IMG/VR virus record: IMGVR_UViG_3300005614_001084
Location: 108,311-172,310 of that record
DNA from: a virus
Lineage: Duplodnaviria; Caudoviricetes
Reading direction: 5' to 3' (one strand)
DNA length: 64,000 nt
Made by a program: the position numbers and the translations under genes. This document shows, in pieces, positions 3,533-23,313 of this stretch. Position 1 is the stretch's first letter, and every line of letters begins with the position of its first letter. Under the pieces are notes generated by a model. That model was not told the origin of the DNA and ran no database searches. It was given only the letters and a program-made list of their open reading frames with translations.

Positions 3533-3781
3533 TCAGGCCGGCGCTTCGCTGGCCTTCTTCGCCGCGGCCTTCTTCGTCGCCTTCTTGGCCGCCTTCGGCT
3601 TCGGCGCCTTCTTGGCCGCCTTCGGCTTCGCCGGGCCCTGGTACTTCGAGAGCGCGTGGTAGCGCGAGACGCCCATCATCAGGAGACGCTCCTTGGCCGC
3701 CTGCTCCGAGATGTCGTGCTTCTTCGCGTAGGCGCCGACGGTCTTCGCGACGTCGTCCTTGGTCAGCTCCTTCTTTCCCAT
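3533..3781 (-). CDS. Small basic DNA-binding protein with histone H1-like PAKK/AAKK tail
   Basis: C-terminal PAKPKAAKKAPKPKAAKKATKKAAAKK; helical head similar to 42433-42612. Confidence 0.8.
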   Translation of the reverse strand: MGKKELTKDDVAKTVGAYAKKHDISEQAAKERLLMMGVSRYHALSKYQGPAKPKAAKKAPKPKAAKKATKKAAAKKASEAPA

Positions 3782-20885: not shown

Positions 20886-21290
20886 CTATCTGTTCGGTAT
20901 GATCTCCTTGCTCAGTCTCAGCCTCGGCTTGTCGGCGTACAGCTTCGCCATCTCCTCGTGCTGCGTTCGGATGTCGAAGGTGGTTCGATACGTCGTGCTC
21001 ATCTCCTCGCTCTGCTTCGCGCAGTCGCGCGCCCAGCGCAGCCAGCACTCGTTCGTGATGTTGCGGCCGGCTCTCCAGTCGTCATACGACCCGTAGTACA
21101 ACGATCGCCAGGCATCATCGGGCAAGACGATGACGAGGTCGAAGTCTCTGGGCTCGTTCGGTAGGTCGCGAAGAGCCCCACCCACGAGATACACCGGGTA
21201 CCCGTAGTACCGGCGTGACAGATCGTGGGTGAGGCACTGCACGAACCTGATGCGGTTCCCGAAGTCAGGAACGATGTCGAGGCTGATCAA
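20886..21290 (-). CDS. Minimal nucleotidyltransferase (Pol-beta superfamily)
   Basis: VYLVGGALRD...RDFDLVIVL...FDIR; TTG start overlaps upstream stop. Confidence 0.7.
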   Translation of the reverse strand: MISLDIVPDFGNRIRFVQCLTHDLSRRYYGYPVYLVGGALRDLPNEPRDFDLVIVLPDDAWRSLYYGSYDDWRAGRNITNECWLRWARDCAKQSEEMSTTYRTTFDIRTQHEEMAKLYADKPRLRLSKEIIPNR

Positions 21291-22177
21291 AGGTTTCGCG
21301 GCATGAGGGCGTGGACGAGGTCGAGCGACCAGAGCCCGCTCTTCTCCACCGCGACTCGGGTGGAGTCGTAGCGGCTGCCCTGGTCCTGCGGGTCGTCGTG
21401 CCAGCGCGCGAAGTCGCTCTTGCCGAACCGGCTGATCAGGTCCTTGGCGAAGTCGTGTGGAGCGGTGGCACCACTGCCGTAGTGCGCCAGGGCCTGCATG
21501 AGGATGTCGGCCGCAGGCGTCGGCGCGTTCACGCTGAAGCAATGGTAGACCGACATCGCCATGTCGATCTCGGGCTGAAGCTGCGAACGTAGCACGAGCT
21601 TGAGATCACCGCTTATCCCGAACTTCGCGTACGCCTGCTGCTCGGTCGCCGCCTTGCCCTTCGCCAACCACAGGATGGCGAACGCGATCTGGGTATCGAA
21701 CGTCGAGGGATCGGAGAAGAGGAGGCTGAAGCCCTCCGCCCATTCCTTGCCGCGGGTGTAACCGGGCAGCCCATTGCCGTCGGGCGATCCGACGAACTCC
21801 TGTCGGATCTCGGCGCCGGTGACCTGCTTGCCGCCCTTCATCAGCACGCCGCCCGCGGTGAGCGCCCAACCCGCCGCCGCCATCTTGACCCCCACGATGC
21901 CCAGGGACCCGACGGCGTCGCGCATGTGGGCGATGAGCAGCCAGAGGTCGCCCTGCGTCATCGTGGAGGGCAGCACGGCCACGTTGTGGAGCAGGCCCGC
22001 GCTCATCCCGGCGCCGTCGTAGCTCTGCACCGTGCCGAACTTCCCGCCGGTCTCCACCTGCGAGACCAGATACGCCACGGCTTCCATGTGCGAGGCGCCC
22101 GAAGGACGAGGCACCACCGCGTTGCCGCGCACCATCCAGCCGGCGTGGTTCTTGAACGTGATGAACGATGCACTCAT
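21287..22177 (-). CDS. Putative lysozyme-like peptidoglycan hydrolase
   Basis: VETGGKFGTVQSYDGAGMSAGLLH resembles E-G..YD..S.G..Q muramidase pattern; GGAGG SD. Confidence 0.5.
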   Translation of the reverse strand: MSASFITFKNHAGWMVRGNAVVPRPSGASHMEAVAYLVSQVETGGKFGTVQSYDGAGMSAGLLHNVAVLPSTMTQGDLWLLIAHMRDAVGSLGIVGVKMAAAGWALTAGGVLMKGGKQVTGAEIRQEFVGSPDGNGLPGYTRGKEWAEGFSLLFSDPSTFDTQIAFAILWLAKGKAATEQQAYAKFGISGDLKLVLRSQLQPEIDMAMSVYHCFSVNAPTPAADILMQALAHYGSGATAPHDFAKDLISRFGKSDFARWHDDPQDQGSRYDSTRVAVEKSGLWSLDLVHALMPRNL

Positions 22178-22208
22178 TGGATCCTCCGTTAGCTGATAGG
22201 AGCAAAAT

Positions 22209-22247
22209 CGAAGGGCCCGGATCGGCGCGATGCCGGCGGGCCCTTCG
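22209..22247 (-). terminator. Intrinsic terminator closing ncRNA locus
   Basis: CGAAGGGCCCG...CGGGCCCTTCG then ATTTT. Confidence 0.75.
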
Positions 22248-22405
22248 GCAGGTTGTATGCGGGTCGTTACTCCCGCGGCGTCATGATCAGCCTCCAACTA
22301 TTCGTTGAACACGGGACGCATGATGCGCGTGACGAAGTCACTCTACTACCGCAACCAGGAACCGTCACCCTTAGATCACATGGTTACTAGCGCATGTTGC
22401 ACCTC

Positions 22406-22582
22406 AGACGCTGGGAGGACTTGAACCTCCAAGGGCACCGGGACTCGAACACCAGGGGGTTTGCTTTTGGTATTACAACTTTGAGATCAGTGGCCGCGGG
22501 CAAGTAGAGGTGCGGCATGAACTCTTCAGACCCTGATGATCTTCGCCTTCGATGTTGTTCCCTCATCACCTGATTCAGCGCC
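22406..22582 (-). ncRNA. tRNA-like structured RNA (177 nt, no canonical anticodon arm)
   Basis: Acceptor stem GGCGCTG/CAGCGTC; T-arm GGAGG-TTCAAGT-CCTCC; second GTTCGAGTC T-loop. Confidence 0.65.
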
Positions 22583-22584
22583 GA

Positions 22585-22971
22585 TGGACCTGCCGGGAAT
22601 CGAACCCGGGTCCGCGATTGCTTCTTCTGTGCGTCTACGTGCGTAGCAGCGCTCTTACGCCTTGATAACGGAGTGCGTGAGCTGCGTTGCCTGCTCTCTC
22701 CGAGGGATGCACGGTTGCCCGCGAATCCTCCACCATCGATCAGATCTACTGCCGCGGCCTCTCACACTGATCGCACTGTGAGAGGTTGTGCCGACTTGAA
22801 TGACGTCGGGATAGGCGAATCGGACCACCTACCCCAACGGCTCAGGCCGCTCGGGCCTGGGCGTAGCTCGAATCGTTCGCAGCTACAGATGATCGGCTTT
22901 TAGAGGAGCCCACCGATCAACTCCTGCACGCAACACAGTCGTCGTCAACCACGTCGAAACCTGTCAGGCCC
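22585..22971 (-). ncRNA. ssrA: tmRNA (387 nt), tag peptide ANDSSYAQARAA
   Basis: 5' GGGCCTGACAGGTTTCGAC; 3' GGACCCGGGTTCGATTCCCGGCAGGTCCA; G3-U acceptor wobble; tag frame 22880-22842. Confidence 0.93.
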
Positions 22972-23313
22972 AGAACAGAAACACGGATCCACAGGGGAAC
23001 CCTTCCTGGCTCCCCCGTGGATTGCGGGGACCGAACCCCGCCCGAGTATGGCGGGCTGTGGACCCGGTGTACCACCTCGCGTGGTATCGATGCGCCAGCG
23101 CCATAACTTGGGGCGCGCTGGACCGTTCCCCGCACTCAGCGATCGGCCCAACTTCGGGGCCTGATGAGTCGCACACCGACAAGGTCTGACGATGTGCGAT
23201 CTCGCGCTCTTCGAACCGCTCCCAACTCGGAGCGACGAGCGCGACGAGAAGGACAGCAGCCATGATGATGAAGAGCATTCCACTCGCTTATAGCAGAGAT
23301 TTCGGTCTCTGTT

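What the first reader, a model, noticed from the sequence alone, without database searches (positions are those of the whole stretch)
22406..22582. Unrecognised 177-nt tRNA-mimic RNA with two T-loops, 2 nt downstream of tmRNA
Seen: a 7-bp acceptor stem GGCGCTG/CAGCGTC (wobble at position 2, not the Ala G3-U) and a perfect T-arm GGAGG-TTCAAGT-CCTCC. The D/anticodon region is replaced by about 145 nt of hairpins (TCAG..TGATGA/TCATCA..CTGA; GAG.TCA.GCCGC/GCGGC.TGA.CTC) plus a second T-loop hairpin CTGGTG-TTCGAGT-CCCGG. It is too long for a tRNA, too short for tmRNA or a group I intron-containing tRNA, and has no clear anticodon. Inference: a new tRNA-like ncRNA cut from the same precursor; RNase P cleavage at its 5' end would also trim the tmRNA 3' end. 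It could decoy anticodon nucleases or uncharged-tRNA sensors. Best candidate for an undescribed system here.
Basis: partly seen in the sequence, partly recalled or inferred. Interest (0 to 1): 0.85.

Follow-up and report, generated by a model that had tools for sequence, protein, structure and literature searches.

The report
Anticodon-less tRNA-shaped RNA behind phage tmRNA
Two bases after its own ribosome-rescue RNA (tmRNA), a 172-kb uncultured phage carries a 177-base RNA with the outer shell of a tRNA but a 109-base branched arm where the anticodon loop should be; it cannot read codons, and it belongs to the long-known but unexplained "tRNA-like stable RNAs" of phages, not to a new system.

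Summary
The core observation holds. On the minus strand at 22582..22406 there is a perfect 7-bp acceptor stem abutting a canonical T-arm. It starts 2 nt after the discriminator of a full-length phage tmRNA. This is far from chance: 5 T-arm motifs against 0.7 expected, and a closure at that spot has p about 0.004.

Rfam and ARAGORN do not recognise it. A covariance model built from it matches ordinary tRNAs end to end by skipping positions 34-142. So it is a tRNA shell with a 109-nt insertion in place of the anticodon loop. The shell keeps the acceptor, a degenerate D region with GG, a 5-bp anticodon stem, a 5-nt variable loop, the T-arm and U73, with no CCA.

The "second T-loop" is only a motif, and the favoured fold uses it in a long helix. 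No homologue was found, so there is no covariation evidence.

It is not a tmRNA, a Y RNA or an intron-bearing tRNA. The closest known things are T5 RNA1/RNA2 and T4 RNAC/RNAD. This scan has noted similar anticodon-less tRNA-like RNAs in other phages, including behind tmRNA.

Most likely the host tRNA enzymes process it, which also frees the tmRNA 3' end. Any role in trans is unknown.

The parts
22585..22971 (-). Phage tmRNA, standard one-piece form. Tag ANDSSYAQARAA, G3.U70, discriminator A at 22585, no encoded CCA (UCG follows).
   Evidence: ARAGORN; Rfam RF00023 at 120.7 bits, full length
22583..22584 (-). 2-nt spacer (U, C) between the tmRNA discriminator and G1 of the tRNA-like RNA.
   Evidence: sequence
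22406..22582 (-). The 177-nt tRNA-shaped RNA. RNA position i corresponds to window coordinate 22583 - i. U at 22406 is the discriminator, and no CCA is encoded.
22576..22582 (-). Acceptor stem, 5' strand: GGCGCUG (RNA 1-7).
   Evidence: pair probability 1.0
22555..22575 (-). D-region equivalent (RNA 8-28). It has A8 instead of U8, no proper D stem, and GGG at 21-23. The best fold makes a 3-bp mini hairpin 9-11/16-18.
   Evidence: aligned to the D loop of real tRNAs
22550..22554 (-). Anticodon-stem equivalent, 5' strand: CAUCG (RNA 29-33).
   Evidence: p 0.99
22441..22549 (-). 109-nt insertion in place of the anticodon loop (RNA 34-142). It continues the stem (36-38/139-141, 45-52/126-133) and ends in hairpins 59-100 and 105-122.
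   Evidence: skipped as one block when model R2 matches real tRNAs
22438..22455 (-). T-loop-like motif (RNA 128-145, GUUCGAGUC inside). It is an imperfect hairpin and is used by the long helix in the best fold.
22436..22440 (-). Anticodon-stem equivalent, 3' strand: CGGUG (RNA 143-147).
22431..22435 (-). Variable-loop equivalent CCCUU (RNA 148-152). In the best fold it pairs with 19-23 instead.
22414..22430 (-). Canonical T-arm GGAGG-UUCAAGU-CCUCC (RNA 153-169).
   Evidence: 12.3 bits to Rfam tRNA positions 46-63
22407..22413 (-). Acceptor stem, 3' strand: CAGCGUC (RNA 170-176).
22251..22405 (-). Structured 3' trailer of the same unit.
   Evidence: fold z = -2.76 together with the terminator
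22205..22250 (-). Strong hairpin followed by GAUUUUG: the likely terminator of the tmRNA / tRNA-like unit.
22987..23022 (-). Terminator-like hairpin ending 15 nt before the tmRNA 5' end. It bounds the unit upstream.

Best explanation
This is a gene for a tRNA-derived RNA that cannot decode. It keeps the parts that tRNA-processing enzymes read: a 7-bp acceptor stem stacked on a canonical T-arm, a D-region remnant with GG, a 5-bp anticodon stem and a 5-nt variable loop. The 7-nt anticodon loop is replaced by a 109-nt extension that prolongs the anticodon arm into a long irregular helix ending in two hairpins.

It is transcribed with the phage tmRNA between two terminator-like hairpins.

Inferred steps:
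- Host RNase P cuts before G1 (22582). This separates the two RNAs and leaves the tmRNA with only a 2-nt 3' trailer.
- 3' trimming and the CCA-adding enzyme then finish both RNAs, since neither encodes CCA.

The one function I commit to is that it acts as a tRNA-type processing module for the tmRNA 3' end and is released as a stable tRNA-like RNA. It falls in the same operational class as T5 RNA1/RNA2 and T4 RNAC/RNAD. Whether the released RNA acts in trans is unknown.
For: - Acceptor stem and T-arm are perfect and certain in the ensemble, and their number and placement exceed chance.
- A covariance model made from this sequence alone matches genuine tRNAs of many isotypes across model positions 1-177, with E down to 8e-5. 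It does so by skipping exactly positions 34-142.
- The RNA sits 2 nt after the tmRNA discriminator, and neither RNA encodes CCA.
- The unit is bounded by hairpins at 23022..22987 and 22250..22205.
- No gene was called in this gap in an independent 188.8-kb assembly of the same phage.
- The 3' 19-mer is in no tRNA of 185,579 species genomes, so it is not a copied host tRNA end.
- Annotated analogues exist in T4 and T5.
- An unrelated IMG/VR phage has a 176-nt two-elbow tRNA-like RNA about 160 nt after its permuted tmRNA.
Against: - No homologue was found in IMG/VR, JGI metagenome contigs, INPHARED phages or 1.5 Mb of phage tRNA-region loci. There is therefore no covariation and no proof of selection.
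- The folding energy is not exceptional (z = -1.69).
- The D region is degenerate (A8, no D stem), so the tRNA elbow may not form.
- Relatives of the flanking genes carry neither the tmRNA nor this RNA, and a phage with a related tmRNA (L019) lacks it. The tmRNA therefore does not need it.
- No expression data could be obtained.
Confidence: 0.5

Rival explanations
1. Relic. A former phage tRNA gene next to the tmRNA received a roughly 100-nt insertion in its anticodon loop and lost its D stem. It is transcribed passively and has no function of its own.
For: - It is an orphan with no homologue.
- The D region is degenerate, and the folding z-score is ordinary.
- A related tmRNA in L019 has no such element.
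- The genome has no other tRNA, as if a tRNA set had been lost.
Against: - All 12 pairs of the acceptor/T-arm minihelix and the T-loop consensus are intact.
- The 5-bp anticodon stem and the long helix above it pair well.
- Similar non-decoding tRNA-like RNAs are kept in many phages, with covariation in one family.
Confidence: 0.22
2. Trans-acting tRNA mimic. The released RNA binds a host or phage protein that reads the tRNA top half. Candidates are a tRNA-directed defence enzyme, the CCA-adding enzyme, an aminoacyl-tRNA synthetase or EF-Tu. It would titrate or recruit that protein.
For: - The top half is intact, with U73 and a GGCGC 5' strand.
- The phage also carries Y-RNA-like tRNA mimics with a DUF7873 protein.
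- A mini nucleotidyltransferase with a CCA-enzyme head motif lies two genes downstream.
Against: - There is no anticodon loop, so it cannot bait anticodon nucleases.
- No partner protein is linked to it: relatives of the nucleotidyltransferase are not next to any such RNA.
- There is no experimental or comparative support.
Confidence: 0.15
3. A second, tag-less tmRNA-like RNA (tRNA-like domain plus a long helix 2) that competes with or modulates trans-translation, as reported for the CDS-less tmRNA of phage DS6A.
For: - The best fold has tmRNA topology.
- RNA 118-146 resembles the tmRNA's own 3' region (z 3.3).
- DS6A precedent (PMC11915505).
Against: - The wobble pair is G2.U71, not G3.U70, and the discriminator is U73, not A73.
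- No tmRNA model matches it.
- There is no plausible tag frame; the best is AAPLLARGH, by eye on the sequence.
- The genome has no SmpB.
Confidence: 0.05
4. A tRNA gene with a spliceable intron in the anticodon loop.
For: Shell geometry fits a tRNA with a 109-nt block in the loop.
Against: - There is no group I or other intron or ribozyme match at E up to 10.
- 109 nt is below known group I sizes (my own knowledge).
- None of 1,682 single deletions gives an ARAGORN tRNA.
- The bases flanking the stem (AAGG.. / ..GUCC) give no U33-anticodon-R37 loop.
Confidence: 0.03

Closest known systems
Phage T5 RNA1 and RNA2 (AY543070 30501-30644 and 32959-33083, annotated 'tRNA-like stable RNA with unknown functions')
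   Same: - They are 125-144 nt, encoded flush within the tRNA-type gene region.
- They have an acceptor-like terminal stem plus a canonical T-arm, a much extended anticodon arm and no usable anticodon.
- RNA2 also has an internal UUCGAUU hairpin, that is, two T-loops.
- There is a weak local likeness of the 5' D-like region to RNA2 at the same offset (UGAUG.GGGAA.CAAC; z 2.6).
   Different: - Apart from that weak 5' stretch, no similarity exceeds the T-loop.
- The T5 RNAs sit among real tRNAs, not after a tmRNA.
- T5 RNA1 keeps a good class II D-arm, whereas here the D stem is lost.
- The element here is 177 nt long.
Phage T4 RNAC (species 1) and RNAD (species 2), AF158101 70908-71171
   Same: They are small stable RNAs at the end of the tRNA cluster, directly after tRNA-Arg. 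RNAC has a T-arm next to a terminal stem and long internal hairpins. Their function is unknown.
   Different: The terminal stem of RNAC is irregular, and there is no sequence similarity except the T-loop. The T4 RNAs are shown to accumulate, whereas here expression is untested.
tmRNA and its CDS-less forms (phage DS6A, jakobid mitochondria, some plastids; PMC11915505)
   Same: A tRNA-like domain with a long helix in place of the anticodon arm, and no decoding. These forms are phage-encoded in some cases. The element here is adjacent to a genuine tmRNA.
   Different: - The alanine identity pair G3.U70 and the A73 discriminator are absent.
- No tmRNA covariance model matches.
- There is no tag frame.
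tRNA-like 3'-end processing signals (mascRNA behind MALAT1; plant mitochondrial t-elements); from my own knowledge, not checked here
   Same: A tRNA-shaped module placed right behind another RNA, so that RNase P cleavage makes that RNA's 3' end. Rfam mascRNA-menRNA gave the only, non-significant, whole-minihelix match (15.6 bits, E 0.9-2.4).
   Different: Those are eukaryotic or organellar, small (about 60 nt) and experimentally shown. Here cleavage is only inferred.
YrlA bacterial Y RNA (Rfam RF02553)
   Same: A tRNA mimic without an anticodon. The same phage has YrlA-like mimics at genome 60.9-61.4 kb.
   Different: YrlA is circularly permuted, with a closed acceptor loop and its ends at the anticodon-stem position. 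This RNA is in normal tRNA order. It gives no RF02553 hit, and the genome has no Ro60/TROVE gene.

Membership tests
Canonical tRNA (Rfam RF00005 / ARAGORN) | 7-bp acceptor stem abutting a 5-bp T stem with a UUCRANY loop | tested here: met
Canonical tRNA (Rfam RF00005 / ARAGORN) | D-arm (3-4 bp stem, loop with GG) and U8 | tested here: not met
   A8. GGG is present at 21-23, but no D stem pairs.
Canonical tRNA (Rfam RF00005 / ARAGORN) | 5-bp anticodon stem closing a 7-nt loop with an anticodon | tested here: not met
   The stem 29-33/143-147 is present, but the loop is 109 nt. ARAGORN gives no call, even with the intron option or after any of 1,682 single deletions.
Canonical tRNA (Rfam RF00005 / ARAGORN) | Score at or above the Rfam gathering threshold (29 bits) | tested here: not met
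   12.3 bits, T-arm only
tmRNA, including CDS-less forms | G3.U70 alanine identity pair and A73 | tested here: not met
   G2.U71 and U73
tmRNA, including CDS-less forms | Match to a tmRNA covariance model (RF00023, RF04321, RF01849-51, RF02544) | tested here: not met
   No hit on the element at E up to 10. The RF04321 hit at E 0.003 rests on the real tmRNA's T-arm.
tmRNA, including CDS-less forms | tRNA-like domain joined to a long helix 2 | tested here: inconclusive
   Present in the best fold, but without covariation.
YrlA / bacterial Y RNA | Permuted order with a capped acceptor stem, an RF02553 match and a Ro60 partner | tested here: not met
   Normal order; no hit; no TROVE domain in the genome.
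tRNA with a group I intron | Intron core recognisable, and exons joining to a canonical tRNA | tested here: not met
Phage tRNA-like stable RNAs (T4 RNAC/RNAD, T5 RNA1/RNA2): an operational class, not a homology family | Encoded flush against a tRNA-type gene in one transcription unit; terminal acceptor-like stem plus T-arm; no usable anticodon | tested here: met
Phage tRNA-like stable RNAs (T4 RNAC/RNAD, T5 RNA1/RNA2): an operational class, not a homology family | Sequence homology to a described member | tested here: not met
   Only T-loop matches, plus a weak 5' likeness to T5 RNA2 (z 2.6).
Phage tRNA-like stable RNAs (T4 RNAC/RNAD, T5 RNA1/RNA2): an operational class, not a homology family | Accumulates as a stable processed RNA during infection | not testable with these tools
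   10.1 bits, T-arm only
tRNA-like 3'-end processing signals (mascRNA, t-elements) | RNase P cleavage that creates the upstream RNA's 3' end | not testable with these tools
   The position fits (2 nt after the discriminator), but cleavage is inferred.

The most novel reading that the evidence does not exclude
Phage tmRNAs may travel with a dedicated tRNA-shaped partner RNA. The partner might be charged or CCA-tailed, and might act with or against trans-translation or tRNA-directed host defence during infection. That would make it a functional two-RNA module, not just a processing signal.
Probability: 0.12. Interest if true: 0.75.

Novelty: new variant of a known kind. Interest (0 to 1): 0.42.

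Why it matters
Phage tRNA-like stable RNAs have been known since the T4 and T5 sequencing era, and no function has been assigned to them. This example is unusually clean. The phage has no decoding tRNA at all, yet it keeps a tmRNA and, glued to it, a tRNA shell whose anticodon loop has been replaced by a large arm. If the RNA is processed as predicted, it shows a bacterial virus using a tRNA-shaped module to make the 3' end of another RNA, as MALAT1/mascRNA and plant mitochondria do. It also gives a simple substrate for asking what these RNAs do. As a single orphan sequence without covariation or expression data, its weight is modest for now.

Tried and rejected
- **Homologue searches, all negative.**
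  - blastn of the 901-nt region against INPHARED phages.
  - Exact 22-mer in IMG/VR.
  - Relatives of the flanking proteins P0001 and the mini nucleotidyltransferase in IMG/VR and the 5.8-billion-protein set. Their contigs have no non-coding gap or tmRNA.
  - The only other assembly of this phage has no DNA on hand.
  - Tandem T-loop patterns in IMG/VR and JGI metagenomes gave other tRNA-like RNAs but none alignable to this one.
  - Model R2 over 1.5 Mb of loci hit only ordinary tRNAs.
  - The scan's own index has no look-alike.
- **Host tRNA 3'-end copy (attP-like).** The 19-mer is in no tRNA of 185,579 genomes.
- **Repeat or mobile element.** The sequence is single copy in the genome.
- **Hammerhead or other ribozymes, C/D-box RNA.** Only non-significant Rfam hits.
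- **Duplicate of the tmRNA.** Only the 3' T-loop region is alike (z 3.3); the 5' and middle parts are not.
- **Protein-coding.** A 60-codon GTG frame spans the element. By eye there is no ribosome-binding site before it, and it was not called in the other assembly.
- **Energies.** The values for two constrained folds were wrong because I mis-indexed pairs; one search replaces them.
- **The genome search on loci from the look-up of encoding contigs** is not possible.

Full report
**Where it is.** The window is bases 108311-172310 of a 172,310-bp IMG/VR virus record of about 62% G+C, rated complete by CheckV. ARAGORN and Rfam find one RNA gene in the window. It is a standard one-piece tmRNA on the minus strand, 22971..22585, with tag ANDSSYAQARAA. 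The whole genome has no canonical tRNA (RF00005 search; ARAGORN). It also has no SmpB, Ro60/TROVE or RtcB gene.

**The observation.** I read the minus strand.
- The tmRNA ends ...CAGGUCC-A at 22585. U and C follow.
- GGCGCUG (22582..22576) then pairs 7/7 with CAGCGUC (22413..22407), with a G2.U71 wobble.
- That 3' strand directly follows GGAGG-UUCAAGU-CCUCC (22430..22414).
- U at 22406 takes the discriminator place, and no CCA is encoded.
- Both helices have probability 1.0 in the thermodynamic ensemble.

The features exceed chance. A strict T-arm motif occurs 5 times on both strands of the genome, against 0.73 +/- 0.86 in first-order Markov simulations. Four of the five lie in RNA loci. A 7-mer able to pair with the 3' strand within six positions of the tmRNA end has probability about 0.004. 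So the core observation is real.

**What the inside looks like.**
- After the acceptor stem comes a 3-bp mini hairpin (9-11/16-18, loop AGGU).
- A long irregular helix follows: 19-23/148-152, 29-33/143-147, 36-38/139-141 and 45-52/126-133, each at p of 0.9 or more.
- The 'second T-loop' (128-145) has the loop letters GUUCGAGUC, but its arms pair only 4+1 with a bulge.
- Forcing that hairpin costs 10.5 kcal/mol.
- The overall energy is ordinary for this composition (z = -1.69).
- Without homologues the choice between the two folds stays open.

**It is a tRNA shell with an insertion in the anticodon loop.** Rfam at E up to 10 recognises only the T-arm (12.3 bits to tRNA), plus a non-significant minihelix match to mascRNA. 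ARAGORN calls nothing, with or without introns, and none of 1,682 single internal deletions yields a tRNA.

I built a covariance model from this one sequence and its best fold (R2). It matches genuine tRNAs of many isotypes (Gly, Pro, Phe, Asn, Trp, Cys, Leu, Thr...) over model positions 1-177, at E down to 8e-5. In the top alignment the 109 nt of positions 34-142 stand against 8 nt of the tRNA.

Read this way the numbering is that of a tRNA:

| tRNA part | RNA positions |
|---|---|
| Acceptor stem, 5' strand | 1-7 |
| Two linker bases | 8-9 |
| D region | 10-27 |
| One linker base | 28 |
| Anticodon stem (5 bp) | 29-33 / 143-147 |
| Variable loop (5 nt) | 148-152 |
| T-arm | 153-169 |
| Acceptor stem, 3' strand | 170-176 |
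| Discriminator U73 | 177 |

The D region has GGG but no stem, and position 8 is A, so the core is degenerate. The RNA cannot decode.

**What it is not.**
- It is not a tmRNA or a tag-less tmRNA. The wobble pair is at 2:71, not 3:70. The discriminator is U. No tmRNA model matches, and no credible tag frame exists. Only the T-loop region resembles the neighbouring tmRNA.
- It is not a Y RNA. The order is not permuted, and RF02553 does not match.
- It is not an intron-bearing tRNA. There is no intron or ribozyme family match, and the bases next to the stem give no anticodon loop.
- It is not a copied host tRNA end. The 19-mer spanning the T-loop and acceptor is in no tRNA of 185,579 species genomes.
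- It is not a repeat.
- It is not a member of the roughly 90-nt two-T-arm family that I found in IMG/VR tRNA arrays (model R1, 10 bits).

**Homologues.** None could be found.
- The flanking gene P0001 (21287-22177, minus) and the mini nucleotidyltransferase after it have relatives in large phage contigs. There the genes are packed together, without a tmRNA or a gap.
- L019 carries a related tmRNA but has only hairpins and a terminator after it.
- Pattern scans of IMG/VR and JGI metagenomes, and model R2 over 1.5 Mb of phage tRNA regions, gave nothing alignable.
- There is therefore no covariation evidence for or against function.

**What is known that resembles it.**
- T5 annotates RNA1 (144 nt) and RNA2 (125 nt) as 'tRNA-like stable RNA with unknown functions'. 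Both have a terminal acceptor-like stem, a T-arm and a greatly extended anticodon arm. RNA2 has a second UUCGAUU hairpin.
- T4 has RNAC and RNAD right after tRNA-Arg, and their roles are still unknown (PMC3014915, PMC9697503).
- CDS-less tmRNAs exist, including one in phage DS6A that inhibits the host tmRNA (PMC11915505).
- In IMG/VR contig L152, a 176-nt tRNA-like RNA with two elbows lies about 160 nt after an alpha-type permuted tmRNA.
- Earlier notes of this scan describe anticodon-less tRNA-shaped RNAs in other phages, one of them 5 nt after a tmRNA. I could not test those directly.

So the kind is known, and this is a new, non-homologous variant of it.

**How it most likely works.**
- Shown: the anatomy, the position and the missing CCA.
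- Inferred from established knowledge of tRNA maturation: RNase P and the CCA-adding enzyme recognise the acceptor/T-arm minihelix.
  - RNase P should cut before G22582. That frees the tmRNA with a 2-nt trailer, to be trimmed and CCA-tailed.
  - The 177-nt RNA would be matured in the same way.
- That is the function I commit to, at confidence about 0.5.
- A role in trans for the released RNA (decoy, or partner of the tmRNA) is possible but unsupported.
- A fresh relic is the main rival, at about 0.22.

**Verdict.** Interest is moderate.

Noticed in passing
G000:C1:60163-61400 (outside the window; L006:1164-2400): A DUF7873 protein (Pfam E 1e-83) is followed by about 470 nt of RNA carrying two circularly permuted tRNA mimics (T-arm, acceptor 3' strand, short loop, acceptor 5' strand, D-arm). 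Each 3' half pairs best with the 5' half that follows it. The first mimic is a full-length but weak YrlA match (22.7 bits, E 0.11). No Ro60 gene is in the genome.
   Followed up: partly
window 20886-21290 (-): A 134-aa mini nucleotidyltransferase whose TTG start overlaps the stop of the upstream gene (TTGA). It has the class II CCA-enzyme/poly(A) polymerase head motif VYLVGGALRD..PRDFDLV. The AlphaFold model has pLDDT 84, and the best (weak, E 0.02) fold matches are CCA-adding enzymes, then MNT antitoxins and MenT toxins. It lies two genes after two RNAs that lack CCA, but its relatives are not next to such RNAs.
   Followed up: partly
L112:480-569, L052:2413-2501, L056:11841-11929, L113:2272-2361, L122:4691-4780, L140:4375-4465 and others (IMG/VR): A recurrent tRNA-like RNA of about 90 nt inside phage tRNA arrays. 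It has a 7-bp acceptor stem, a D-like hairpin, a 5-bp hairpin with a GACG tetraloop where the anticodon loop should be, and two complete T-arms. In an 11-sequence alignment, 11 of 26 pairs change on both sides (0 of 500 shuffles reach this). Rfam does not know it. Earlier notes of this scan report the same RNA in other genomes.
   Followed up: partly
L152:3385-3560 (-), IMGVR_UViG_3300033114_000024: A 176-nt tRNA-like RNA with an outer acceptor/T-arm shell and what looks like an inner mini-cloverleaf with its own T-arm. It lies about 160 nt downstream of an alphaproteobacterial-type permuted tmRNA (tag ANDNSFGDMRLAA). It is a second case of a long tRNA mimic behind a phage tmRNA.
   Followed up: partly
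L007 about 3590-3663, and L008, L013, L017, L020, L021, L023, L025 (IMG/VR): RNAs of about 73 nt that start GGGCCUGA.. and end ..GGUUCGAUUCCCGGCAGGUCCA. They have the same acceptor and T-arm as this phage's tmRNA, including G3.U70, but no tag region. They look like the CDS-less tmRNA reported for phage DS6A.
   Followed up: no
whole genome G000: This 172-kb phage has a tmRNA, the tRNA-like RNA and Y-RNA-like mimics, but no decoding tRNA and no SmpB.
   Followed up: yes
window 22267-22295 (-): A GGAGG box 6 nt before a 5-codon frame (AUG ACG CCG CGG GAG UAA), in the trailer between the tRNA-like RNA and the terminator. It may be chance.
   Followed up: no
window 21287-22177 (-): P0001, a 296-aa protein with no Pfam or PHROG family, has 40 or more relatives in phage contigs of 100-300 kb. 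In several it lies just upstream of the large terminase. It is translationally coupled here to the mini nucleotidyltransferase.
   Followed up: partly
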